Source: a virus (Duplodnaviria; Heunggongvirae; Uroviricota; Caudoviricetes). From it: a stretch of DNA of 37,277 nt. Positions 1 through 17,248 of the stretch are shown here, one piece after another. Numbering within the stretch: position 1 is the stretch's first letter; every line of letters begins with the position of its first letter. The stretch is taken from IMG/VR virus record IMGVR_UViG_2711768166_000003; one strand, given 5' to 3'. Position numbers and translations under genes: made by a program. Below the pieces are notes generated by a model. It did no database searches, had not been told where the DNA came from, and worked only from the letters and a program-made list of their open reading frames with translations.

Positions 1-341
1 GGCGTCACACCCGAAGAGACAATTACTTCTGGAACCCCATTGAGATGCTGGTAAAAGCGTTGGAACCACAATTCCAGATTCATACCATTGGCGAGAATCA
101 GTTGTGCCCCCTGCGCACGTTTAATATCGCCAGGGGTAGGCTGATACTCATGAATTTCTGCACCAGGCTTGGTTATGGATGAGACTTCTGCAGCATCTCC
201 CGCCACGTTTTTGGCCATATCCGCGATGATGGTAAATGTTGTAATGACCTTAAATTTTTCAGTTGCACTTGCCTGAAATGCGATCGAGCAGGTGAGTGCG
301 AGGCCCCCCAAGAGCATGGTTACTTTTTTTATTGAGCGCAT
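1..341 (-). CDS. sitA: Mn/Fe ABC transporter periplasmic substrate-binding protein SitA, N-terminal part (gene continues beyond window start)
   Basis: Reverse-strand translation from ATG at 339-341 reads MRSIKKVTMLLGGLALTCSIAFQASATEKFKVITTFTIIADMAKNVAGDAAEVSSITKPGAEIHEYQPTPGDIKRAQGAQLILANGMNLELWFQRFYQHLNGVPEVIVSSGVTP; signal peptide then conserved SitA/MntC-type N-terminus. Not in the ORF track because it runs off the window edge. Confidence 0.8.
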   Translation of the reverse strand, partial: MRSIKKVTMLLGGLALTCSIAFQASATEKFKVITTFTIIADMAKNVAGDAAEVSSITKPGAEIHEYQPTPGDIKRAQGAQLILANGMNLELWFQRFYQHLNGVPEVIVSSGVT

Positions 342-373
342 AATTTAGTACCTATAGTGAGCAAAATTAGAAC

Positions 374-395
374 AAACATAGCAACGGCTATGTTT
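374..395. promoter_or_regulatory. MntR-box-like perfect inverted repeat in the sitA upstream region
   Basis: AAACATAGC-aacg-GCTATGTTT, a 9-bp perfect inverted repeat with 4-bp spacer; matches the recalled MntR operator consensus found upstream of mntH/sitA. Confidence 0.6.
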
Positions 396-417
396 TATAG
401 CATAACCTATACAGAAT

Positions 418-436
418 GAAAATGATTATCATTAAC
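418..436. promoter_or_regulatory. Fur-box-like site in the sitA upstream region
   Basis: GAAAATGATTATCATTAAC matches the 19-bp Fur consensus GATAATGATAATCATTATC at 16 of 19 positions; palindromic core AATGAT-T-ATCATT. Confidence 0.5.
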
Positions 437-534
437 ATCTTTGAGGCCCAAAACAGGGATTAGTTTGTTTCCTGCTGGATGAAAGGACTCTTGGGATAGC
501 ACATGCCGCACGAAGAGCAGCATTACATGATGTT

Positions 535-774
535 TTGTCGAATGAGCTACGAATCCTGATAGAAATACGAAACAAGCTAGCACATGGACAATGGATCTAT
601 CCCTTCAATAATGAAGGAAATACTGTTGACCCTGATAAATATAAATTAATCAATAAAGAAAACTTGCAGTCACTCCAATTCAAATATTCATTAGCACAGC
701 ATTTAGTTGACGCTGTACATGATTTGGTTGTAAGTCCTACGACATTCGAACGAGATTTCGAAAGCCATTTTTAA
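535..774 (+). pseudogene. Short ORF with HEPN-like R-x4-H motif, possible remnant of an Abi-type HEPN protein
   Basis: 79-aa ORF in AT-rich DNA; contains EIRNKLAHGQW (R-x4-H plus flanking residues typical of HEPN active sites). Too short for a full HEPN protein; no clear RBS. Confidence 0.3.
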
Positions 775-1256
775 AAATTATATCAAGTACGAACAAACTT
801 AGTGACAAAAGACTACGAAAAATATAAAACAATTTTAGTATTAAGTAGAGAGAAATTTCGTTCTGCTAGGACGCAGCAATAGGTTCATGAGATTCTCTGA
901 TACTTGTTACCTTAGTAAGCCTTAAATTTTTAAAAATTCTTTTACGTCCACTCCTCGCTCATAACAGGCATTAACTACATTTATCTTCATTGGCTATGCA
1001 AGTCGTAATAAAAGGTGGGACAAAACTGAGACACATAAGCTCTCACAAAGGTCTGCAAGGCCTCACATGTATTGAGATGTTAATAAAATGTAGACTTGTA
1101 ATTTTGATATAAATGGTAGATAAAACCTTTCCCCAAAATAAAAACGAACGTCAATGAAATCAAATGGTTGAATAAAGTTGATTTTGGCTAATAAAAAAAC
1201 AATAAAATAATTTTTATTATTAAATATCAATGACTTAAACTTAATGTTTTTATATA

Positions 1257-1421
1257 CTGCTGCGCCATATGGGCTGGACTGAAGCTGCAGACCTGATTGT
1301 TAAAGGTATGGAAGGCGCAATCAATGCCAAGACCGTAACCTATGACTTCGAACGTCTGATGGAAGGCGCTAAACTGCTGAAATGTTCAGAGTTTGGTGAT
1401 GCGATCATCAAGAACATGTAA
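1257..1421 (+). pseudogene. icd: Isocitrate dehydrogenase 3'-terminal fragment (icdC-like), prophage attachment junction
   Basis: In-frame translation [54 protein letters not shown] matches the Icd C-terminus with a few substitutions; similarity starts abruptly at about 1257 with unrelated AT-rich DNA upstream, so no intact icd precedes it. Confidence 0.85.
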
Positions 1422-1444
1422 TTACTACATATGTTAAATATTGT

Positions 1445-1476
1445 AACGGGCGTATAACACGTCCGTTATTTTTTGT
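1445..1476 (+). terminator. Rho-independent terminator following the icd 3' fragment
   Basis: Stem AACGGGCGT / ACGTCCGTT (one mismatch) followed by ATTTTTTGTT. Confidence 0.55.
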
Positions 1477-1490
1477 TAGCCTGCTAACGG

Positions 1491-1523
1491 TTATCAAAAT
1501 TTTATCAAAACAAGTTATCAAAA
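1491..1523. repeat. Three direct copies of TTATCAAAA next to the att junction (candidate integrase arm-type or accessory-protein sites)
   Basis: TTATCAAAA at 1491-1499, 1502-1510 and 1515-1523. Confidence 0.5.
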
Positions 1524-1763
1524 CCCTTGGTAGTTGGCGGTGAGAGGGGGGGGGTTAAGCGCGTTAGTTTTTCATTACGAATTTCTCTGCTTTTCATGAT
1601 TAATGTTGGTGGATGCTTGCTAATATTTAGGCCTGTGTTGTGCCAGAAGCAGAAGTTGCCAGCATTAAATTGATGGGGTAATAAAATATGGTTTGTTGTT
1701 TGAAATTCTAATGGATTCAATTAATTAGGTTTTAATGTTTGACTAGCTCACAAGTATAATTAT

Positions 1764-3347
1764 TTGTTATTCAAAGGAACAAGACAATTGAACACTTTCA
1801 TATTCAGAAATAATGATGAAATCGGGAAGTTAGAGGCAGAATCAGACAATTACTTAGACTCATGTTTTTTAGAGACAAACATATTCAAAGGTATTATGAA
1901 CTTTGATCCATCTGAGAAAAATCCAGATTTTACGAAAAGAATCATCGTTGGAAGAACTGGTAGCGGAAAGTCAGCGATTTTAAGGAAGATTATCGACGAA
2001 GAAAGCATAAAGTTTTCTGATAAGATTGAAGCAGAAAACACTATTTTTGAACATGTTAAAAACAATGTCTTTATTTCATCCCTAAATGATAGTGGAATTG
2101 ACTTGAGAGTTTTTTATAAGTCTTTATGGTTACATGCGCTACTAATAAAAGTCATTCCAGCCTTACATCGGTCAACTTATCAAAGCTTTTTTAATAAAAT
2201 TCAAGACTTAATTGGTGGGAAAAAGAAGTCATATAATCCAGAGTTGGCAAATGAATATATCGAACAATTTAAGGACGTATTTTTTAATGACAAGGCTTTA
2301 GTGGAAATAAGCAACAAAATGCAGAGTGAATTATCTTCTAAGATAGGTATAAAAGGTATAGATCTTGGAGGTAAACTTGGTCGCGAAGACACTCAGAAAG
2401 TGCAGTCTGAAACATCCAGTTATGTAAGCAGAGAGTTAATCAGAAAACAAAAGGAATTAATAAAAATATTAAATGAAGAGTTTTCTGAAGTTGGACAGTT
2501 TAGGATAGTTATAAGCATTGATGATCTTGATCGTTCTTGGCTGAGCTCTAGCGATATAAGATATGATTTTATAAATGCACTATTAGAAGCATTTAGGGAG
2601 TTACTTGACGTCAAGTCAGTTAAAATATTAATTTCGATTAGAACTGATATACTAATGGGTATTTACAATAAAACATTAAGGCAAGATGAGAAGGACCAGT
2701 CTCTTATTTATCCTGTATCTTGGAATAAATCAGAGATCCGAGAAATAATTGACATGCGTATTAATCACTTAATTAAAAATAAATATCAAAGCTCTCGCAC
2801 TATTACAATGAAAGATATTTTCAATTTTGAAATTGATAACGTATATGCAGATGATTATATTTTAGACAGAACAATGTTAAGACCTAGAGATGCAATAAGT
2901 TTTGTAAATTATTGCTTAAAGGAGTGTGATGGGCACGTAAGTATTAATCAAGATATAGTTTTAATGGCAGAAGAGAAGTTTTTTTCTTCTAGGAAAAGAG
3001 CATTGGTGTCGGAATGGGGAACTATTTACAAAAATATTTCAGGTTACATAGACGCCTTATCTTTGTTGGAAAAACATGAATTTTCATTAGAATCAATTGG
3101 AGACGATAATAAAAATGACATTCTAACTTATATTCTTGATAGAGTTCCATCAGATATCGAAGATGATTTACACTCCAAAATAGTAATGAACTTTGATGAA
3201 TTAATAAAAGTATGGTTTATTGTTGGAATTATAGGGATAAAGAGGACTGAAACCTTAATAATATACTCTTCATATGATAAACCCGATCTTGATATCACTG
3301 ATATCAAACGCAACTTCGTCATTCATCCTTTGTTTAATAGAAGATGA
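1764..3347 (+). CDS. AT-rich cargo P-loop NTPase, KAP-like (Walker A GRTGSGKS, Walker B VISIDDLDR); candidate defence ATPase
   Basis: 527-aa ORF; Walker A near residue 63 and hhhhDDLDR Walker B near residue 250 (long A-to-B spacing as in KAP NTPases), further ISIRTD and LRPRDA motifs. Sits between att and int. Start uncertain: track start is TTG at 1764; first in-frame ATG is at 1896; a TATAAT hexamer lies at 1755-1760. Confidence 0.7.
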   Translation: MLFKGTRQLNTFIFRNNDEIGKLEAESDNYLDSCFLETNIFKGIMNFDPSEKNPDFTKRIIVGRTGSGKSAILRKIIDEESIKFSDKIEAENTIFEHVKNNVFISSLNDSGIDLRVFYKSLWLHALLIKVIPALHRSTYQSFFNKIQDLIGGKKKSYNPELANEYIEQFKDVFFNDKALVEISNKMQSELSSKIGIKGIDLGGKLGREDTQKVQSETSSYVSRELIRKQKELIKILNEEFSEVGQFRIVISIDDLDRSWLSSSDIRYDFINALLEAFRELLDVKSVKILISIRTDILMGIYNKTLRQDEKDQSLIYPVSWNKSEIREIIDMRINHLIKNKYQSSRTITMKDIFNFEIDNVYADDYILDRTMLRPRDAISFVNYCLKECDGHVSINQDIVLMAEEKFFSSRKRALVSEWGTIYKNISGYIDALSLLEKHEFSLESIGDDNKNDILTYILDRVPSDIEDDLHSKIVMNFDELIKVWFIVGIIGIKRTETLIIYSSYDKPDLDITDIKRNFVIHPLFNRR

Positions 3348-3477
3348 TATCTAAGGTATGATCTTAGTATAAACCTAGTTAAAATTATTAAGGCACATCC
3401 CTCGCTTAAACCAAATTGTTTGACTCTTTTTCATGAGTGGTGAGAAATTCAAGGTAGCGTTGAAAATATTAGATTTT

Positions 3478-4605
3478 TTACCACGCTACCTTGCTCCATC
3501 CTTTGCCTCGATCGTCATGATAACGATCGGTTTGTTGTTGCGTTTTATGGCCAAGTAGTTTTTGTGTGTCTACCCCCTGTTCTTTGTACAGACGTTCAGA
3601 TAAAGACCTTTGTTCATGGAATGTTGCTGGTGAGCCATTACCCCAGTCAATTTCTGCCAAATCTCTCGCTCTACTAAAATTCGTCGTCAATGTATTGGAT
3701 TTAACCTGCGCGCCACGTTCAGCCTGTGAAGTGGTACGAAAAAAATGCACAAGGTATGGGCTGACTGCATAGTCACGGCAGCGGGCGACTACATCGCGTA
3801 AACTCCAGTTAATTGCATTGAGGCGAAGGGAAAGCGGGATGGCGATTTTGCTCCCGGTTTTTTCTTGGATGACGTGAAGATGATCATCCCAAATATCGCT
3901 AAATTTCATTTTGGATATATCTCCCAAACGCTGCCCAGTGACCAAAGCTAGGAGCATGGCATTTCCCATGTAACGATGACTGGCGTCTGCTATATCGAAT
4001 ATTTTTTGCCATTCTTCCAGGCTGAGGCGTTGACGGGTAATTTTTCTTTTGGGTTGCTTCGTCGCAAGAGCAGGGTTATACCCTGGCGGAACTTCGCCAT
4101 AATGCTGTGCTTCCTTAAACACATCGATCAATACAGACCTAACGACTTGGGCCATTCTAGGCTGTCCAGCTGCAATATACTCATCAAGCAATTGTGCTAT
4201 ATCTCTAACATCAACGGATGAGATCAACTTCATTCCTGCTCGTTCTCTGAGCAAGGATACTGGTTTAGCTTTTTGCTTATAGGTGTTGAGTCTTATATCA
4301 CCACTTTTGAGCCTGTCATCCTGGATCGCTTGATAGCGATCTAACCAGGTTGACGTTGTGATCGCTTTTCCTTTGCTGGTTGCGATCCTATCACTGATAG
4401 CTAGAATCTGCCGGGTTCTTTGCTCAGCCAGACGAGTGTTAGCTTCAGTGGCAATAGCAATAGCTTCAGCTTCATTTGTGCCCAACGAATGAAATTTCCC
4501 GGTCACTGGATGCTTATATCGCCAATAGACTTTATTTACTTTTCTACTATAAAGCGGATACAAGTTAGGTACTGAAACATTATTTTTACGTGGTCTGGCT
4601 GCCAT
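3478..4605 (-). CDS. int: Phage integrase, tyrosine recombinase
   Basis: 375 aa; conserved catalytic elements TGQRLGD (Arg), HEQRSLSERLY (H-x-x-R) and C-terminal TDRYHD (Tyr); adjacent to att and excisionase. Confidence 0.95.
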   Translation of the reverse strand: MAARPRKNNVSVPNLYPLYSRKVNKVYWRYKHPVTGKFHSLGTNEAEAIAIATEANTRLAEQRTRQILAISDRIATSKGKAITTSTWLDRYQAIQDDRLKSGDIRLNTYKQKAKPVSLLRERAGMKLISSVDVRDIAQLLDEYIAAGQPRMAQVVRSVLIDVFKEAQHYGEVPPGYNPALATKQPKRKITRQRLSLEEWQKIFDIADASHRYMGNAMLLALVTGQRLGDISKMKFSDIWDDHLHVIQEKTGSKIAIPLSLRLNAINWSLRDVVARCRDYAVSPYLVHFFRTTSQAERGAQVKSNTLTTNFSRARDLAEIDWGNGSPATFHEQRSLSERLYKEQGVDTQKLLGHKTQQQTDRYHDDRGKGWSKVAW

Positions 4606-4846
4606 TGCTTAAAATCCTTTGCAGAATAATAGAATCACTTTTCTTGATTACTGGAGTAACTAATTCCCCAACTAACTCTGCGTCCTCACGTACTCGCCAG
4701 AGTCGACCTTGTTTCATTGCTGGTGGACAAAATAAATTCTGCTTAGCATAACGACGCAATGTGGACACACTTGGAGGATTACTCCTAAATTTTTCCGCAG
4801 CCCATTCCTCAAGTGTCAGCATTTGAAGCATTTTTGATAACCTCAT
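4586..4846 (-). CDS. xis: Excisionase (Xis)
   Basis: Small protein immediately upstream of and overlapping int; MLTLEEWAAEK...PSVSTLRRYAK...GRLWRVRED is typical of phage excisionase-type DNA-binding proteins. True start may be the internal Met at 4831, which has a GAGG RBS. Confidence 0.8.
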   Translation of the reverse strand: MRLSKMLQMLTLEEWAAEKFRSNPPSVSTLRRYAKQNLFCPPAMKQGRLWRVREDAELVGELVTPVIKKSDSIILQRILSNGSQTT

Positions 4847-4886
4847 TTCTTTTGCTACAAAACTATTTCACTAGTTAATTTCGCTG

Positions 4887-5423
4887 TCAGGATTGCTTAT
4901 GTATCTTATGCAGCTCTTTAAAACGTTCCATAAATATCTCGTAGGCATGGCCAGGAGCCAGAGGAACAACTTCGAACATCTCTGTTGCCGGGATACCTTC
5001 CAATACTGGCCAGAAAGAGCCATCATCAAGCCCGAGATCGCGGCGTTCGGTTGCCAGCATGATGAGATCGGCATATTTCACGGGCGTGCTCATAGCCTGA
5101 GGTAACCCGTATTTCTCACGGATTACGGCGTCTATTTTTTCTTCCATCCGTTTATAGTCAGGAAGAAGGCGTTTCAGTGCTGCGGGGATGTCCTGGCAAT
5201 ACGCTTCTGTTGCATCATGCATTAATGCTTCAAAAGCAAATTCCTGCGGTACCAGCATGCTGCAAAGCACCGCATGTTGGGCGACGCTATAGAAGTGTGA
5301 AAGGTGTCCTGCAAAGCGGCAGATATTTGAAAGGGAAACCGCGATATCGTTAATAACGATGTCGTCTTTATTTATCTTGTCATAATAAAAATGCTTCCCA
5401 GAAAAAGTTTTAATAAATGACAT
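4887..5423 (-). CDS. HD-domain phosphohydrolase (YfdR-like 5'-deoxynucleotidase)
   Basis: H...HD metal-binding signature (SVAQHAVL ... LMHDATEAY); start set at the Met preceded by GGAGAA RBS (MSFIKTFSGKH...), 178 aa. Confidence 0.8.
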   Translation of the reverse strand: MSFIKTFSGKHFYYDKINKDDIVINDIAVSLSNICRFAGHLSHFYSVAQHAVLCSMLVPQEFAFEALMHDATEAYCQDIPAALKRLLPDYKRMEEKIDAVIREKYGLPQAMSTPVKYADLIMLATERRDLGLDDGSFWPVLEGIPATEMFEVVPLAPGHAYEIFMERFKELHKIHKQS

Positions 5424-9893: not shown

Positions 9894-10835
9894 ATGAGCA
9901 CTAAATTAACCGGCTATGTATGGGATGGTTGCGCTGCATCAGGCATGAAGTTATCCAGCGTGGCAATTATGGCCCGCCTGGCTGATTTCAGTAATGACGA
10001 AGGTGTGTGCTGGCCATCAATTAAAACCATTGCCCGTCAGATTGGCGCGGGGATGAGTACCGTCAGAACGGCTATCGCACGGCTGGAAGCAGAAGGCTGG
10101 TTAACGCGTAAGGCGCGTCGCCAGGGTAACCGCAATGCGTCGAATGTTTATCAGCTTAACGTTGCGAAGCTTCAGGCAGCGGCATTTTCTCAACTGTCAG
10201 ATTCTGACCCGTCAAAATCTGACGCATCAAAATCTGACCCGTCAAAATTTGATGCGTCGAAATCTGGCAAAAAAGCGGGTTTTCACCCGTCAGAATCTGG
10301 CGGGGATCCGTCAGTAAAATCAAAACATGATCCGTCAGATAAAAAAACTTCTCGTCCGGACGCTTCGCAACCGGACACGCAGACGGCTGAACAGGATTTT
10401 TTAACTCGCCATCCTGATGCGGTTGTATTCAGCCCTAAAAAGCGCCAGTGGGGGACGCAGGATGATTTGACCTGCGCACAGTGGCTCTGGAAAAAAATCA
10501 TCGCCCTGTACGAGCAGGCTGCCGAATGTGACGGCGAGGTGGTTCGTCCCAAAGAACCGAACTGGACAGCCTGGGCAAACGAAATTCGCCTGATGTGTGT
10601 GCAGGATGGTCGTACTCACAAACAAATCTGCGAGATGTACAGCCGCGTCAGCCGCGATCCGTTCTGGTGCCGTAACGTGCTCAGCCCGTCGAAGCTGCGG
10701 GAAAAATGGGATGAGCTTTCCCTGCGCTTATCGCCGTCCGTCAGCACGTACACAGAAAAACGCGAAGACCCGTACTTCAAAGCCAGTTACGACAATGTGG
10801 ACTACAGCCAGATCCCGGCAGGATTCAGGGGGTGA
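9894..10835 (+). CDS. Replication initiation protein (O-like, N-terminal winged-helix DNA-binding domain)
   Basis: 313 aa; N-terminal HTH (WPSIKTIARQIGAGMSTVRTAIARLEAEGWL); internal Ser/Asp/Lys repeat linker encoded by tandem DNA repeats. Confidence 0.8.
   Translation: MSTKLTGYVWDGCAASGMKLSSVAIMARLADFSNDEGVCWPSIKTIARQIGAGMSTVRTAIARLEAEGWLTRKARRQGNRNASNVYQLNVAKLQAAAFSQLSDSDPSKSDASKSDPSKFDASKSGKKAGFHPSESGGDPSVKSKHDPSDKKTSRPDASQPDTQTAEQDFLTRHPDAVVFSPKKRQWGTQDDLTCAQWLWKKIIALYEQAAECDGEVVRPKEPNWTAWANEIRLMCVQDGRTHKQICEMYSRVSRDPFWCRNVLSPSKLREKWDELSLRLSPSVSTYTEKREDPYFKASYDNVDYSQIPAGFRG
10195..10350. repeat. Candidate replication origin: iteron array plus A-rich tract inside the O-like gene
   Basis: Five tandem ~15-bp units (TGTCAGATTCTGAC, CCGTCAAAATCTGAC, GCATCAAAATCTGAC, CCGTCAAAATTTGAT, GCGTCGAAATCTGGC), then further CCGTCAG copies and an A-rich stretch (GATAAAAAAAC). 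Confidence 0.55.
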
Positions 10836-10837
10836 GC

Positions 10838-11326
10838 ATGAGTCTTTTGAATGACGTTCAGAAATTCATTGAAGCCCATCCGGGCTGTACTTCCGGAGAC
10901 ATTGCGGATGCTTTTGCAGGTTACTCACGGCAGCGCGTTCTGCAGTCAGCAAGCAAGTTACGTCAGAGTGGGCGTGTGGCTCACCGTTGTGAAGGAGATA
11001 CACGCAGACATTTCCCGCGCCTGACTGAGAGAGCGCAGGAGCCGGAACCACAACCAGTTCGTGAAACCAGACCTGTGCGCAATTTCTATGTCGGCACTAA
11101 CGATCCCCGGGTGATTTTATGCCTGACCCGCCAGGCTGAAGAACTGGAGTCAAGGGGCTTATACCGTCGTGCTGCAACCGTGTGGATGGCGGCATTCCGT
11201 GAAAGCCACTCCCAGCCAGAACGAAACAATTTTCTGGCACGTCGTGAGCGGTGCTTACGGAAAAGCAGCAAGCGCGCTGCATCGGGTGAAGAGTGGTATC
11301 TGTCAGGGAATTACGTGGGGGCTTAA
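10838..11326 (+). CDS. Hypothetical phage protein (Arg-rich, possible regulator)
   Basis: ATG at 10838 preceded by a GGGGGTGA RBS-like stretch; ends with TAATG overlap to the methylase gene. Confidence 0.55.
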   Translation: MSLLNDVQKFIEAHPGCTSGDIADAFAGYSRQRVLQSASKLRQSGRVAHRCEGDTRRHFPRLTERAQEPEPQPVRETRPVRNFYVGTNDPRVILCLTRQAEELESRGLYRRAATVWMAAFRESHSQPERNNFLARRERCLRKSSKRAASGEEWYLSGNYVGA

Positions 11327-11979
11327 TGAGTAATAAATATTGCCGGGCGCTGGTGGAACTGCGGAACAAACCAGCCCATGAACTGAAGGAAGTGGGCGAT
11401 CAGTGGCGCACGCCGGATAACATTTTCTGGGGAATTAACACCCTGTTTGGCCCGTTTGTCCTGGATCTGTTTACTGACGGTGATAACGCCAAATGTACCG
11501 CGTATTACACGGCGGAAGACAACGCGCTGGCGCATGACTGGTCAGAACGTCTTGCGGAGCTTAAAGGTGCTGCCTTTGGTAATCCCCCATACAGTCGCGC
11601 CAGTCAGCATGAGGGGCAATACATCACCGGCATGCGTTACATCATGAAACATGCCGGTGCCATGCGTGATAAAGGCGGGCGCTATGTTTTCCTGATCAAA
11701 GCTGCCACCAGCGAAGTGTGGTGGCCGGAAGATGCAGACCATATTGCTTTTATTCGCGGGCGTATTGGTTTTGAACTGCCTGCCTGGTTTATCCCGAAAG
11801 ATGAGAAGCAGGTGCCGACAGGCGCTTTCTTCGCTGGTGCTATTGCTGTTTTCGACAAGACCTGGAAGGGACCGGCAATCAGCTACATCGGGCGCGATGA
11901 ACTTGAGGCATGTGGTGAGGCCTTTCTGGCGCAGGTTCGCCAGCAGGCGGAAAAACTGGTCAGGGAGATGGCGGCATGA
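11326..11979 (+). CDS. Phage DNA N6-adenine methyltransferase (Dam-type orphan methylase)
   Basis: Catalytic motif IV FGNPPYS; upstream DQWRTPDNIF and LDLFTDG motifs typical of the phage Dam family; start at the MSNKY Met. Confidence 0.85.
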   Translation: MSNKYCRALVELRNKPAHELKEVGDQWRTPDNIFWGINTLFGPFVLDLFTDGDNAKCTAYYTAEDNALAHDWSERLAELKGAAFGNPPYSRASQHEGQYITGMRYIMKHAGAMRDKGGRYVFLIKAATSEVWWPEDADHIAFIRGRIGFELPAWFIPKDEKQVPTGAFFAGAIAVFDKTWKGPAISYIGRDELEACGEAFLAQVRQQAEKLVREMAA

Positions 11980-12302
11980 CGACGTTAACTCAATGCCAGC
12001 AGCAGGTGCTGGATATGCTGATTTCTTACCAGAAAGAACGTGGCTTCCCGCCAACCAATCAGGAGGTGGCAACCATGCTGGGATACCGTTCAGTGAATGC
12101 AGCGGTGGAGCATCTTCGCGCACTGGAGAAAAAAGGCGTCATCACGATAAAGCGTGGCGTGGCCCGGGGGATCACGCTTCATACCGCAGTGAAGGACGAC
12201 GACAGCGAAGCGGTCGGTATCATCCGCGCACTGCTTGCCGGTGAGGAGAACGCTAGGTTGCGTGCAGCCCACTGGTTACATGAGAGGGGCCTGAAAGTAT
12301 GA
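11976..12302 (+). CDS. LexA-type DNA-binding domain protein
   Basis: 108 aa; ERGFPPTNQEVATMLGYRSVNAAVEHLRALEKKGVITIKRGVARGI resembles the LexA N-terminal winged helix; no peptidase domain. Confidence 0.7.
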   Translation: MTTLTQCQQQVLDMLISYQKERGFPPTNQEVATMLGYRSVNAAVEHLRALEKKGVITIKRGVARGITLHTAVKDDDSEAVGIIRALLAGEENARLRAAHWLHERGLKV

Positions 12303-14502: not shown

Positions 14503-14519
14503 TTTTGTGGAGAAAGTTG

Positions 14520-14876
14520 ATGCGTGATATGTATGAAGTAATGGATCGTTGGGGAGCTTGGGCTGCTTCAGACAATAGCGGAGTGGACTGGCAGCCGATA
14601 GCGGCTGGTTTCAAGGGACTTTTACCTCATGGCAAAAAGTCACGGATTCAGTGTGATGATGACGAAGGCATCATGATAGACAGTTGTGTGGCTCGGTTGA
14701 GAAGGTATAAACCAGAGGAATATGAGCTCATCATCGCCCACTTTGTTATCGGTATCTCATTACGCACTATTGCGAAGAAGAGAAAATGCTCTGATGGCAC
14801 AATTAGGAAGGAACTGCAAACTGCAATGGGGTTTGTTGATGGCTGTTTAGCAATGTTAGCTTATAGTATGGCATAA
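14520..14876 (+). CDS. Late-gene antiterminator Q (QuuD-type)
   Basis: MRDMYEVMDRWGAWAA ... IAAGFKGL ... SRIQCDDDEG ... CSDGTIRKELQTAMGFVDG parallels the recalled QuuD-family sequence; start at ATG 14520 after a GGAGAAAG RBS. Confidence 0.85.
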   Translation: MRDMYEVMDRWGAWAASDNSGVDWQPIAAGFKGLLPHGKKSRIQCDDDEGIMIDSCVARLRRYKPEEYELIIAHFVIGISLRTIAKKRKCSDGTIRKELQTAMGFVDGCLAMLAYSMA

Positions 14877-16070
14877 AAAATAAAATAGATTTACTGCCGA
14901 TTTTTCAAAAAAGACTGGGAACTGTTTATATCCAACGTAAATAAGGCCTCCATAAAACATGGCTGATGCGAGATATTTAACAGTTCTCATCCTTTTTTTA
15001 GCTTTATCAATCAAACCTGTAATGCTACTCTTAATACTATCTGCATTATCTTTGATTTCTTTATTTTCTTCAAACTTTAAATACTTATCGAAAGCGGACT
15101 CCACTCGAGAACGTAAGTTGTCGAATGTTTCATTGAATATCTCAATAGAAATGTAATTGACTTTTTTTATCATCCAAAGTCCTGCGATAATCAATATTGC
15201 TTCGGTTGTTTCATTAGCCTTCACTAAGCCACCAGCTGCTATTAATGCACCGGGAATAGTCAATGCTTTTGTCTGATTAGATGATATGAATTCGTTAATT
15301 TTACTCGTGAACTCAAGATTTTTCTCATCGAGTTCGTTAAGAATTTTATTTACAGAAAACCTCTTTGTGTAAATCTCATATAGTTCATCATATTTTTTCC
15401 TGACGAGTTCAGTAGAGTTAAGCAAGTCAAAGAAATTGAACGTACCATTTGCTTTAAATACTTCGTTTATGGCTGAGCGTATAACGAGCTTGCGCTCGCT
15501 TTTGTGTAAATCATTGATTTTTATTGTGTCGAGAAGCTCCTTTACAATTTCATATTTAAGAGACGAGTTCGATAAGCGATTAATCTCGCTATATTGTAAA
15601 AAATGCGTGAGTTCGACTGTATAACTTTTGTCTTCATTGGTGAAAAATAAGACAGAGCAGTCACTGTTATGATGATCAGAAATTAATGAAAGGATATCTT
15701 TCCACATAAAGAAAATATGGATTTTTTCGATGCTTTCATTCTTAGAAGTAGGGAGTATTAACGGCGTTCCGATGATATAATTTTTCGGAAGAGCGTTTTG
15801 GGTGTTTACTCTAGACCAAAAAGACTCAACATTCTCATAAATTATAGCATCATCCCAAGATGAAGCTTGGCGATCTAGCCAAATTTCATTATTTTCGATG
15901 CAGGTTGTTGCCTTTTTATAACCTATAGATTGTAACAGTCTAATTATTTCAGAACTATTTACAATAACAATGCTTTCTTCAAGACTTATGACAGTGTAGT
16001 AGCCCTCAACTCTGCTTGAGGCTCCGTTAATAATCTGCGCTAATCTTGATAAGTCATCAGCAATTGTCAT
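14856..16070 (-). CDS. AT-rich cargo gene B: protein with predicted C-terminal transmembrane helices (candidate effector)
   Basis: 404 aa; hydrophobic segments ALTIPGALIAAGGLV, AILIIAGLWMI and YLASAMFYGGLIYVGY in the last third; start ATG 2 nt after the stop of gene A; 3' end overlaps the Q gene convergently by 21 bp. Confidence 0.75.
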   Translation of the reverse strand: MTIADDLSRLAQIINGASSRVEGYYTVISLEESIVIVNSSEIIRLLQSIGYKKATTCIENNEIWLDRQASSWDDAIIYENVESFWSRVNTQNALPKNYIIGTPLILPTSKNESIEKIHIFFMWKDILSLISDHHNSDCSVLFFTNEDKSYTVELTHFLQYSEINRLSNSSLKYEIVKELLDTIKINDLHKSERKLVIRSAINEVFKANGTFNFFDLLNSTELVRKKYDELYEIYTKRFSVNKILNELDEKNLEFTSKINEFISSNQTKALTIPGALIAAGGLVKANETTEAILIIAGLWMIKKVNYISIEIFNETFDNLRSRVESAFDKYLKFEENKEIKDNADSIKSSITGLIDKAKKRMRTVKYLASAMFYGGLIYVGYKQFPVFFEKSAVNLFYFLCHTIS

Positions 16071-16072
16071 TA

Positions 16073-17248
16073 TTAGCTGTCTCTATATCTTTTGAGTTCA
16101 TCATAATTTGCCTGACTCAATTTTATCACAATTTCGCATTTGTTGTCAGTGAGAATTACAGGCTTATTTGACTTTTCGTCTCCAATAGCTCCACGCATTA
16201 TTTTCAACTTAAAATTATTGTCGTTATCTGCCACTTCAATTGTAAGCGCGCTTTCAGCTGCTTTAGGAGTTGGTTCAAATTGAGGGTCAATCTGGAAACC
16301 ATTAAGATTAACAAAATCGACAAACGTTCCCTTACATTTGTGTGAATCAGTCAGGCATGAGTCAATTATTTTTGAAATATCCTCTATCTTAACGGACTTA
16401 TTTCCGTGTTTATCTTTTGATTTTTTTTCCAGTAAGGATTTAACTTCATTGTCAATAGTATCACGCAGTACACGACCGAGTGAGTTTTTACTAGCAAAAA
16501 TATCTATAGCACTGAATAATTGCTGAATGCTTCTTTTATTGTCCGAATCATGTCGGCAACCTAATGAGTCTTTGAAAAAATCGCTTTTAGATTTACCTTG
16601 CAAGAAATGTACATATGAGTCACCCTTGTTTTCTGGATAACTGGCTTCGAATAAAGTTAAATCGAACATCGCAGCCTGCCGTAAGGCATCGGTATTAATT
16701 GGATTTAATCTTGTTGGGGTCAACTTATCCGAATCAAAGTCATAGGCGCTTTGTTTATCAACCATTACGATTAGAAGTTTCCCCAAATCCTCTGGTTCGG
16801 TAGACTTATAGTGGATGAAAACAACGCTCCCCCCCTGAAGTTGGGCAACTCTCGATTCGTTATTAGCATTATGTTTAAGCTTCTCTATTATAGCTCTAGA
16901 TAAATCAATGAATTCATTATTTTTATTAATGTATTTTTTTAGGATCGTAGGAATGGATGAAGGGTTGTGATCTGAGTCTAGGAAGTTATGAAATTTGTTT
17001 TTTCGGCTAAATTTTTTCTCAATTCTGGTTATGAATTCAGATGTGACTTCATTTTTTAGATCCCAAACTTCACCTAATCGATAATCAAATGCTCTTGAAT
17101 CATTTTTTTCAAGATTTGCTGTTACAGCACCAATAGGAAAGTACGATTGTTTGCCCAGCACTACAACATGAGGCGTGGCACCGCATTTATCGCAAGCTAC
17201 AGTTGGGTCGTCAAGAACATTGCCACATTCTAAACAAGTTATATCCAT
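16073..17248 (-). CDS. AT-rich cargo gene A: N-terminal zinc ribbon plus NA37/YejK-like nucleoid-associated domain
   Basis: 391 aa; N-terminal CLECG-x12-CDKCG; central region aligns by eye to YejK (GGSVVFIHY vs GGFVLFCHY; ...DLT...FL.GK...). Family assignment is from memory, not a search. Confidence 0.7.
   Translation of the reverse strand: MDITCLECGNVLDDPTVACDKCGATPHVVVLGKQSYFPIGAVTANLEKNDSRAFDYRLGEVWDLKNEVTSEFITRIEKKFSRKNKFHNFLDSDHNPSSIPTILKKYINKNNEFIDLSRAIIEKLKHNANNESRVAQLQGGSVVFIHYKSTEPEDLGKLLIVMVDKQSAYDFDSDKLTPTRLNPINTDALRQAAMFDLTLFEASYPENKGDSYVHFLQGKSKSDFFKDSLGCRHDSDNKRSIQQLFSAIDIFASKNSLGRVLRDTIDNEVKSLLEKKSKDKHGNKSVKIEDISKIIDSCLTDSHKCKGTFVDFVNLNGFQIDPQFEPTPKAAESALTIEVADNDNNFKLKIMRGAIGDEKSNKPVILTDNKCEIVIKLSQANYDELKRYRDS

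What the first reader, a model, noticed from the sequence alone, without database searches (positions are those of the whole stretch)
1764..3347. Solitary KAP-like P-loop NTPase as AT-rich cargo between the att junction and the integrase
The 527-aa protein carries a Walker A (GRTGSGKS) and, about 185 residues later, a Walker B of the form hhhhDDLDR, a spacing and motif I associate with KAP-family NTPases. It occupies the slot between the icd-type att site and int, which in phage e14 holds the ymfD-ymfE-lit cargo (lit is the Lit cell-death protease); this is established knowledge about e14, not something seen here. The gene is AT-rich relative to the phage backbone and is flanked by a poly-G tract and direct repeats. 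A single-gene NTPase in this variable att-proximal slot is a plausible stand-alone anti-phage or abortive-infection factor.
Basis: partly seen in the sequence, partly recalled or inferred. Interest (0 to 1): 0.7.

Follow-up and report, generated by a model that had tools for sequence, protein, structure and literature searches.

The report
Lone prophage ATPase, likely anti-phage
A single AT-rich gene wedged between the attachment site and the integrase of an e14-like E. coli prophage encodes a 519-residue ATPase of the already named "Sll1717" family, a distant relative of the experimentally validated one-gene phage-defence protein DS-41, so it is very probably a prophage-carried defence gene whose exact mechanism is still unknown.

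Summary
An intact ORF (1764-3347, +) carries GRTGSGKS and IVISIDDLDR 184 residues apart. It has 31% GC against 51% for the prophage, and lies between a phage-borne icd 3' fragment and intE. Homologues and PGAP place the start at TTG 1788 (519 aa). "KAP-like" is only partly right. Pfam KAP_NTPase is passed weakly (27.9 bits, cutoff 20) and there are no membrane helices. The proper assignment is NCBIfam "P-loop ATPase, Sll1717 family" (184.9 bits, cutoff 75, full length). DS-41, a single-gene defence validated in E. coli (DefensePredictor, Science 2026), also scores above that cutoff. It is only about 21% identical, so this protein is not a DS-41 equivalog. A 71%-identical E. coli homologue appears to represent a cluster that DefensePredictor scored as a predicted defence gene. 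The attL-int slot holds Lit, PD-Lambda-5, a DUF262 protein and other cargo in other strains. No partner gene is conserved across 25 viral loci and the genome contexts examined. The predicted fold is an AAA+/STAND-like ATPase, lid and winged helix, with a hypervariable segment and no recognisable effector domain. Verdict: an untested new member of a known kind. Defence is likely and the mechanism is inferred. Interest is moderate.

The parts
1258..1421 (+). Phage-borne icd 3' fragment, the last 54 codons plus stop. It is the att-side end of the e14-like prophage. Here it is an orphan, because the sequence to its left is the sitABCD island and not icd.
   Evidence: Translation and a Pfam Iso_dh C-terminal hit. 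Homology to icd-integrated prophages starts exactly at 1258. In K-12 the e14 feature starts 165 nt before the icd stop.
1443..1469 (+). Terminator-like hairpin plus T-run just after the icd stop.
1491..1523 (+). Three direct repeats of TTATCAAAA, starting at 1491, 1502 and 1515. They are conserved prophage backbone. Inferred to be arm-type (P'-like) binding sites for the Arm-domain integrase.
   Evidence: 4 in the window against 0.44 expected. Homology with other e14-like prophages extends through them to about 1524-1530. The integrase has PF09003 at 127.5 bits. Their function is inferred by analogy with the lambda P'1-P'3 sites.
1531..3477 (.). Variable cargo cassette of about 1.95 kb and about 31% GC. 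In other strains it is replaced by unrelated cargo.
   Evidence: Boundaries from BLAST against four other icd-intE loci. GC content. Alternative cargos.
1546..1554 (+). G9 homopolymer in the cargo leader. Its length is identical in the three E. coli genomes that carry this cassette.
1755..1760 (+). Perfect -10 hexamer TATAAT with only a weak -35. Candidate native promoter.
   Evidence: Sequence. It was not reported by the consensus scan because the -35 is poor. Inference only.
1773..1779 (+). Shine-Dalgarno-like AAAGGAA, 9 nt upstream of TTG 1788.
1788..3347 (+). Sll1717-family P-loop ATPase gene, 519 aa. The mechanical ORF begins at TTG 1764 (527 codons).
1821..1868 (+). Family-wide conserved N-terminal motif IGxLxAExDxxLxxCF. 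G21, A25 and D28 are 99% conserved in 137 diverse representatives.
1950..1973 (+). Walker A, GRTGSGKS.
2505..2534 (+). Walker B, IVISIDDLDR. D253 is 100% and D256 99% conserved.
2619..2648 (+). Strand VKILISIRTD with invariant R293. Read as a sensor-1-like arginine of the STAND 'hhhToR' type.
   Evidence: The functional role is inferred.
2880..2891 (+). RPRD motif with R375 100% conserved. Read as a sensor-2-like motif in the helical lid.
   Evidence: The functional role is inferred.
3024..3188 (+). Hypervariable segment, residues 421-475, at the start of the C-terminal winged-helix-like domain. Candidate specificity determinant.
   Evidence: Mean identity is 35% here against 57-80% elsewhere among 54 close homologues, and 15% in the diverse set.
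3478..4605 (-). intE-type tyrosine integrase, convergent with the ATPase gene. It marks the right edge of the cargo slot.
4586..4846 (-). xisE-type excisionase.

Best explanation
The gene is a prophage-carried, single-gene anti-phage defence ATPase of the Sll1717 family, the broader family that contains DS-41. It rides in the exchangeable cargo slot between the P'-arm repeats of attL and the stop codon of intE in an e14-like lambdoid prophage.

Proposed working, all of it inferred:
1. In the lysogen the gene is expressed from its own weak, AT-rich promoter.
2. The protein idles as a nucleotide-bound AAA+/STAND-like switch, made of a nucleotide-binding domain with a long helical insert, a helical lid and a winged-helix domain.
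3. A phage-derived cue is recognised through the fast-evolving C-terminal region (residues 421-475 plus the winged helix).
4. ATP binding and hydrolysis through K69, D253/D256, R293 and R375 drive a conformational change or oligomerisation.
5. There is no nuclease, protease, TIR, SIR2 or membrane domain. The output is therefore most likely direct, ATP-dependent interference by binding or sequestering a phage protein or DNA. Less likely, it is an abortive response through ATP consumption or a host partner.
For: Shown:
- The ORF is intact with intact catalytic motifs.
- It matches NF047389 (Sll1717 family) over its full length at 184.9 bits against a cutoff of 75. PGAP gives the identical protein that name.
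- DS-41 (WP_033812887.1, a single gene, protective against several BASEL phages) scores 92 bits on the same model. It aligns collinearly with this protein over 357 residues. The DS-41 model hits this protein at E 6e-13 over residues 23-444.
- DefensePredictor file 3 lists family member WP_000026497.1 (29% identical) at score 14.7 as a "Putative novel defense gene". Its apparent cluster-representative column gives WP_001741757.1, which is 71% identical to this protein.
- The slot is a defence hotspot. It holds Lit in K-12, PD-Lambda-5 (PD-Lambda-5_B at 402.8 bits), a DUF262 NsnA-like protein, and an AAA+HNH pair.
- The gene is solitary. No Pfam family recurs in more than 5 of 25 viral loci, and the Yersinia, Qin-like and Photobacterium contexts differ.
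- It is rare and patchy: 13 of 5426 complete E. coli genomes carry it, 3 with this allele. It is AT-rich.
- The AF2 model is confident (pLDDT 86.6). Its nearest folds are Cdc6/ORC, archaeal SSO1545, TnsC, NLRs, BrxC, RdrA and Avs.
- The C-terminal segment is hypervariable.
- Other stand-alone KAP NTPase proteins defend in a Walker-B-dependent way (PMC12632615).
Against: - No experiment exists on this protein or on its close subfamily.
- Identity to DS-41 is only about 21%, and the DS-41 equivalog cutoff is missed by far (48.5 against 370 bits).
- PADLOC 2.0 has no model that hits it.
- There is no recognisable effector domain, so the output step is a guess.
- The promoter is only a -10 match, so expression in the lysogen is not shown.
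- Two of the three E. coli genomes with this allele carry a nonsense mutation in it. The gene is therefore dispensable and perhaps costly.
Confidence: 0.6

Rival explanations
1. It is a phage-life-cycle accessory rather than a defence gene: an ORC/Cdc6-, DnaC- or TnsC-like DNA-binding ATPase that helps the prophage with replication initiation, DNA loading or target choice.
Against: - The gene is absent from nearly all e14-like and Qin-like prophages. Only 13 of 5426 genomes carry it.
- It occupies different slots in different phages, and also sits alone in a Photobacterium chromosome.
- It is compositionally foreign to its phage.
- A nonsense allele persists in otherwise identical prophages.
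- A family member is a validated defence protein.
Confidence: 0.12
2. It is a classical KAP-family NTPase of the PifA or Tmn type: a membrane-associated exclusion protein whose action depends on membrane insertion.
For: Pfam KAP_NTPase scores above the gathering threshold (27.9 against 20 bits, E 1.7e-6). The Walker B has the hhhhDDLDR form with a long insert of about 185 residues between Walker A and B. Several sources name homologues "KAP family NTPase".
Against: - The Pfam match covers only profile positions 30-206 of 293.
- No 19-residue window reaches a transmembrane-like hydropathy without charged residues. The maximum is 1.59, in the winged-helix domain, and 1.43 in the insert.
- The insert is modelled as soluble helices.
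- PADLOC gave no hit to any defence-protein model beyond a P-loop-only match.
- The far stronger, full-length match is to the Sll1717 family.
Confidence: 0.08
3. It is a selfish or addictive cargo gene, or a decaying passenger, with no benefit to host or phage.
For: It is AT-rich, rare, has no detectable partner, and two of three genomes with this allele carry a premature stop.
Against: The family keeps its full length (about 500-580 aa) and its catalytic residues across 1130 clusters at 50% identity. This indicates purifying selection on an active ATPase. The copies in the window and in strain A42 are intact.
Confidence: 0.08

Closest known systems
DS-41 ("AAA2", WP_033812887.1; NCBIfam NF053860), a single-gene E. 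coli anti-phage system validated in DefensePredictor (Science 2026, PMC13092281)
   Same: Both are single genes of about 500 aa. Both score above the cutoff of the NCBIfam Sll1717-family model: 184.9 and 92 bits against 75. They align collinearly from Walker A through Walker B (hhhhDxLD), the "SWN..E..E..D.R" helix and the "PR(D/E)" lid motif. Neither has a recognisable effector domain.
   Different: Identity is only about 21%. This protein scores 48.5 bits on the DS-41 equivalog model, whose cutoff is 370. The N-terminal IGxLxAExD motif and W122/H124 are specific to this branch. DS-41 has been tested and this protein has not.
NCBIfam NF047389, "P-loop ATPase, Sll1717 family"
   Same: Full-length match (profile positions 1-452 of 454) well above the cutoff. 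RefSeq already gives the identical protein WP_045133314.1 this name.
   Different: The family name carries no function, and a full-text search found no paper that mentions Sll1717.
KAP family P-loop NTPases (Pfam PF07693; PifA of the F plasmid, Tmn, EF_KAP, RADAR RdrA)
   Different: There are no transmembrane helices in or before the NTPase domain, the profile coverage is partial, and no fused effector region is recognisable.
Lit and the other cargo of the e14 attL-intE slot (K-12 ymfD-ymfE-lit; PD-Lambda-5; DUF262/NsnA-like)
   Same: The same position in the same kind of prophage, between the icd-derived att region and the integrase stop codon.
   Different: No sequence or fold relationship. 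Lit is a peptidase that cleaves EF-Tu (as cited in PMC6379469).
STAND / ORC-Cdc6-type AAA+ switches (Avs, bacterial NACHT, NLRs; archaeal SSO1545/PAB2304, PF01637)
   Different: There is no repeat-type sensor (TPR, WD40 or LRR) and no N-terminal effector domain. The protein is a bare switch module with a 100-residue C-terminal domain.

Membership tests
NCBIfam NF047389 P-loop ATPase, Sll1717 family | HMM score at or above the curated cutoff (75 bits) with near full-length coverage | tested here: met
   184.9 bits, E 2.9e-54, residues 20-526 on profile positions 1-452 of 454. PGAP names the identical protein accordingly.
NCBIfam NF053860 DS41_1_antiphage (equivalog of DS-41) | HMM score at or above the curated equivalog cutoff (370 bits) | tested here: not met
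   48.5 bits, E 6.3e-13. Pairwise identity to DS-41 is about 21%.
NCBIfam NF053860 DS41_1_antiphage (equivalog of DS-41) | Single-gene system that lowers phage plating when expressed in E. coli | not testable with these tools
   The solitary gene organisation is shown. The phenotype needs an experiment.
KAP family P-loop NTPase (Pfam PF07693; Aravind et al. 2004, from my own knowledge) | Pfam KAP_NTPase score at or above the gathering threshold | tested here: met
   27.9 bits against 20, E 1.7e-6, but only profile positions 30-206 of 293.
KAP family P-loop NTPase (Pfam PF07693; Aravind et al. 2004, from my own knowledge) | Transmembrane helices inserted in, or attached to, the NTPase domain | tested here: not met
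   The highest Kyte-Doolittle 19-residue mean is 1.59 (residues 473-492, containing D, E and K) and 1.43 within the Walker A-B insert. AF2 models soluble helices there.
KAP family P-loop NTPase (Pfam PF07693; Aravind et al. 2004, from my own knowledge) | Walker A GxxGxGKS/T and a Walker B of the hhhhDDxD type separated by a long insert | tested here: met
   GRTGSGKS at 63-70 and IVISIDDLDR at 248-257. D253 and D256 are 99-100% conserved.
AAA+/STAND switch ATPases | Nucleotide-binding domain, helical lid and winged-helix domain in this order | tested here: met
AAA+/STAND switch ATPases | Separate effector domain and repeat-type sensor domain, as in Avs, bacterial NACHT proteins and NLRs | tested here: not met
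   No Pfam, PADLOC or NCBIfam domain beyond the ATPase. The protein ends about 100 residues after the lid.
Known named defence systems in PADLOC-DB 2.0.0 | Significant match to any system protein model | tested here: not met
   The only hit is mad8, E 0.0025, over the P-loop residues 60-91.
e14-type attL-intE cargo slot | Located between the phage-borne icd 3' end with its adjacent repeats and the intE stop codon, and replaced by other cargo in related prophages | tested here: met
   Homology breaks at about 1524-1530 and about 3476-3495 against four other prophages. K-12 layout. Other cargos.

The most novel reading that the evidence does not exclude
The most novel reading not excluded is as follows. 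This branch of the Sll1717 family is an effector-less, minimal AAA+/STAND module: nucleotide-binding domain, lid and winged helix only. It would protect by a mechanism not yet described for bacterial immunity, such as ATP-driven assembly on, or sequestration of, a phage DNA or protein target. Target specificity would be written in a 55-residue hypervariable segment (residues 421-475). The gene would travel as one of many cassettes exchanged precisely between the integrase arm-site repeats and the int stop codon of e14-like prophages.
Probability: 0.2. Interest if true: 0.6.

Novelty: new member of a known kind. Interest (0 to 1): 0.35.

Why it matters
If confirmed, it adds a second, very divergent working example (about 21% identity) to the DS-41/Sll1717 family. 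That family has more than a thousand 50%-identity clusters across Proteobacteria, plasmids and prophages, and its mechanism is unknown. The protein is a bare ATPase switch with no effector domain and has a short hypervariable segment. This makes it a compact model for asking how such proteins sense phages and stop them. It also documents the attL-intE junction of e14-like prophages as a precise exchange slot for defence cargo, including Lit, PD-Lambda-5, DUF262 and AAA+HNH. That slot is a convenient place to look for further systems. It does not overturn anything: both the family and the idea were already in the literature by 2025-2026.

Tried and rejected
- PADLOC-DB 2.0.0 returned nothing beyond a P-loop-only hit.
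- PHROGs returned only an unknown-function family, phrog_13260.
- tblastn against 50,697 deposited phage genomes gave no match.
- Foldseek against BFVD viral structures gave nothing with E <= 0.001.
- A profile search of PDB sequences returned only P-loop matches with E >= 0.04. No relative has a solved structure.
- A full-text search for "Sll1717" found 0 papers.
- I looked for a conserved upstream element or small partner ORF travelling with the gene. Upstream regions of four contexts do not align, and no flanking Pfam family recurs.
- I tested whether the G9 tract varies in length, as a phase-variation site would. It is identical in the three genomes.
- I tested for transmembrane segments and found none.
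- Rfam on window 1-5000 gave only two sub-threshold STnc150 fragments.
- I considered Lit-like, PifA-like and Tmn-like assignments and rejected them for lack of any sequence signal.
- The literature search for a described e14/icd defence hotspot returned nothing specific.
- The Brenes and Laub 2025 paper on E. coli prophage defences is not in the library.
Full report
**1. Observation**

The window has an uninterrupted ORF at 1764..3347 on the + strand, 527 codons from a TTG.
- It encodes GRTGSGKS (nt 1950-1973) and IVISIDDLDR (nt 2505-2534). The Walker A lysine and the Walker B aspartate are 184 residues apart.
- The gene has 31% G+C, against 51% for the rest of the prophage.
- Upstream lie a 54-codon icd 3' fragment (1258-1421), a terminator-like hairpin (1443-1469), three TTATCAAAA direct repeats at 1491, 1502 and 1515 (4 copies in the window against 0.44 expected), and a G9 run at 1546-1554.
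- Downstream and convergent is an integrase with a lambda-type Arm-DNA-binding domain, followed by an excisionase.
- K-12 e14 has icd-ymfD-ymfE-lit-intE-xisE in the same arrangement.

Three details need correcting.
1. Homologues are 518-520 aa and align from residue 9, where M is nearly invariant. PGAP starts the identical protein WP_045133314.1 at the TTG at 1788. A perfect TATAAT (1755-1760) and an AAAGGAA (1773-1779) sit just upstream. The protein is therefore most likely 519 aa.
2. The direct repeats are conserved prophage backbone, not cargo flanks (see section 2).
3. The icd piece is an orphan. Left of 1258 lie an AT-rich remnant and the start of sitA. The window therefore shows two elements in tandem at icd. 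Strain A42 has the same prophage end next to an intact icd.

**2. The slot**

I compared the window by BLAST with four other icd-intE loci.
- Homology runs from 1258 to about 1524-1530, just past the third repeat. It resumes at about 3476-3495, and the int stop codon is at 3478.
- The 1.95 kb between these points is an exchangeable cassette.
- Other strains carry different cargo there: a DUF262 protein resembling Menshen NsnA/PD-T4-2_A; an AAA ATPase plus a methyltransferase matching PD-Lambda-5_B at 402.8 bits; a 774-aa TPR protein; a 348-aa unknown protein; and an AAA ATPase plus HNH endonuclease. K-12 carries ymfD-ymfE-lit.
- By analogy with the three P' arm sites of lambda, and given the Arm-binding domain of the integrase, I take the three repeats to be arm-type Int sites. 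This is inference.
- Two sub-threshold Rfam STnc150 fragments lie on the minus strand on either side of the cassette and are collinear in the model: positions 134-175 at 3483-3524 and positions 190-263 at 1436-1511. This would fit a locus that is contiguous where no cargo is present. I did not follow it further.

**3. What the protein is**

- Pfam gives KAP_NTPase at 27.9 bits (threshold 20). The match covers only profile positions 30-206 of 293. There are weaker hits to AAA_22 and nSTAND1.
- PADLOC gives nothing beyond the P-loop.
- NCBIfam gives a full-length match to NF047389, "P-loop ATPase, Sll1717 family": 184.9 bits against a cutoff of 75, on profile positions 1-452 of 454. It also gives a sub-threshold match to NF053860, "DS41_1_antiphage": 48.5 bits against a cutoff of 370, E 6e-13, over residues 23-444.
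- DS-41 is the single gene "AAA2", WP_033812887.1. It was validated against several BASEL phages in the DefensePredictor study (PMC13092281).
- The part of the DS-41 sequence printed in that paper's supplement scores 92 bits on the Sll1717 model, also above the cutoff. It aligns collinearly with the window protein over 357 residues at 21% identity.
- The same supplement lists a plasmid family member, WP_000026497.1, which is 29% identical to the window protein. Its score is 14.7 and its label is "Putative novel defense gene".
- In that row, the column that elsewhere repeats the protein's own accession gives WP_001741757.1, presumably the cluster representative. WP_001741757.1 is the Qin-prophage homologue and is 71% identical to the window protein. 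Neither accession is in the list of tested systems.

**4. Family size and conservation**

- An exhaustive HMMER search finds 1130 representatives of 50%-identity clusters at E <= 0.001, and 333 at E <= 1e-30. Nearly all are 500-580 aa and match end to end.
- I aligned 137 diverse representatives. The near-invariant positions are:
  - an N-terminal motif (I20, G21, A25, E26, D28, L31, C34, F35);
  - Walker A;
  - W122 and H124 in the helical insert;
  - D253, L255, D256 and W259;
  - K287, R293 and D295 on the next core strand;
  - Q307, E309 and K310;
  - R369, T370, R373, P374, R375, D376 and N382 in the lid;
  - E403, R410, E417 and W418.
- The C-terminal 100 residues are poorly conserved. 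Among 54 close homologues, residues 421-475 average 35% identity to the query, against 57-80% elsewhere.

**5. Structure**

- AlphaFold2 with a 55-sequence alignment gives mean pLDDT 86.6 and pTM 0.84.
- The order of elements is: a P-loop core with a long all-helical insert between the Walker A helix and the Walker B strand, then a helical lid, then a helix-helix-helix-hairpin domain that I read as a winged helix.
- Foldseek against the PDB puts the BREX BrxC N-terminal ATPase, RADAR RdrA and archaeal SSO1545 on top, with weak scores (E 5e-4 and above, TM-scores 0.2-0.4).
- These are generic AAA+/STAND similarities. No solved structure is a close relative, by fold or by sequence.
- No transmembrane segment is present, so the defining insert of classical KAP NTPases is lacking.
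- No nuclease, protease, TIR, SIR2 or other effector domain is detectable.

**6. Genomic behaviour**

- The gene is in 13 of 5426 complete E. coli genomes. Three carry this allele in the e14-like slot. Ten carry the 71% variant in a Qin-like prophage, between the replication-region genes and hokD.
- In Yersinia an 85% homologue sits between the integrases of two adjacent prophages. In Photobacterium a 60% homologue stands alone among chromosomal genes.
- Distant relatives (27-31% identity) are on plasmids of Enterobacteriaceae, Cupriavidus and Burkholderia, mostly conjugative, and a fragmentary 43%-identity match is on an Acinetobacter plasmid.
- IMG/VR holds 25 loci with relatives.
- I called the three ORFs on either side of each locus (136 proteins) and scanned them against Pfam. 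No family occurs in more than 5 loci. The hits are terminases, portals, CI-type repressors, Bro-N and P2 GPA, which means different slots in different phages. There is no conserved partner.
- Deposited phage genomes have no copy.
- Two of the three E. coli genomes with this allele carry a G-to-T nonsense change at gene position 1282. The window and A42 copies are intact.

**7. Interpretation**

The best-supported reading is a stand-alone, prophage-borne anti-phage ATPase of the Sll1717/DS-41 family.
- Shown: family membership; the homology to a validated defence protein; the defence content of the slot; the solitary and mobile behaviour; the intact catalytic motifs; and the hypervariable C-terminal segment.
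- Inferred: expression from the TATAAT promoter; recognition of a phage cue by the variable C-terminal region; and nucleotide-dependent switching or oligomerisation.
- Most speculative: the output step. With no effector domain and no membrane anchor, I favour direct ATP-dependent interference with a phage protein or DNA over an abortive mechanism. This is in line with the non-abortive, Walker-B-dependent behaviour reported for a different stand-alone KAP NTPase protein, EF_KAP (PMC12632615). I hold this weakly.

Rivals considered:
- A phage replication or loader function. This is supported only by generic fold hits and by one genomic neighbourhood.
- A membrane KAP/PifA-type mechanism. No transmembrane segment was found.
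- A selfish or decaying passenger. The family-wide conservation argues against this.

**8. Comparison, novelty and score**

- The protein is a member of the named NCBIfam Sll1717 family.
- It is not a DS-41 equivalog.
- It is KAP-like by a weak Pfam hit but fails the transmembrane criterion.
- It works like a minimal STAND/AAA+ switch but lacks the sensor repeats and effector domains of Avs and NLR proteins.
- The family is already named. A distant member has been validated, and a cluster apparently represented by a 71% homologue has been published as a predicted defence gene. This is therefore a new, untested member of a known kind.
- Interest is moderate at 0.35. What remains open is how an effector-less ATPase of this family stops phages, and whether the e14 attL-int junction is a general cassette-exchange site.

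Noticed in passing
window 14856-17248 (minus strand): Two ORFs sit antisense between the Q antiterminator (14505-14876, +) and the lysis genes (from 17870). One is 404 aa with no Pfam or PADLOC hit. The other is 391 aa and matches PF04245 (NA37/YejK-like nucleoid-associated protein) at 84.5 bits. This looks like a second cargo (moron) slot of the same prophage.
   Followed up: partly
window 1-1257: The window starts inside sitA (minus strand, to about 340) of the sitABCD iron/manganese transporter island. That island abuts the orphan icd fragment. In strain MS1657 the sit genes follow the tail genes of another prophage, so two elements sit in tandem at icd.
   Followed up: partly
window 535-774 (+): A 79-aa ORF carries an RNKLAH (Rx4H, HEPN-like) motif and gives weak Cas13b/Cas13e hits (E 0.01-0.04). 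It appears to be the remnant of a 256-aa hypothetical protein (WP_000567449.1) that is intact in MS1657, which has about 1 kb more sequence here.
   Followed up: no
window 1436-1511 (-) and 3483-3524 (-): Two sub-threshold Rfam STnc150 (Hfq-binding sRNA) fragments flank the cargo cassette. They are collinear in the model (positions 190-263 and 134-175; 27.4 and 18.7 bits against a gathering score of 60). This pattern is expected if an int-3'/att-proximal RNA locus is split by the inserted cargo.
   Followed up: no
window 10182-10304: Six iteron-like direct repeats with 15-nt spacing (TCAAAATCTGAC-type) lie within the 9894-10835 ORF, which matches an HTH-domain protein gene in related prophages. 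Probably the prophage replication origin.
   Followed up: no
L001 (E. coli MS1657), locus 10789-12072; also VTB96929v: The otherwise 99.9% identical copy of the ATPase gene has a single G-to-T change at gene position 1282 that creates a stop, giving 427 aa. The window and strain A42 are intact.
   Followed up: yes
window 4832-4840 (minus strand): A fourth exact copy of TTATCAAAA lies within the first codons of the xis ORF (4586-4846, minus strand). It is a possible further integrase arm-type site.
   Followed up: no
L016 (E. coli STEC388) 833-3472; H87 (S1-ESP-02-A): The same icd-intE slot holds an AAA ATPase plus a methyltransferase matching PD-Lambda-5_B at 402.8 bits in one strain. In another strain it holds an AAA ATPase plus HNH endonuclease pair. 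Strain ML35 has a 774-aa TPR protein with only a weak PDC-M34B hit, and Ecol_545 has a 348-aa protein with no hit. The last two are both untested candidates.
   Followed up: partly
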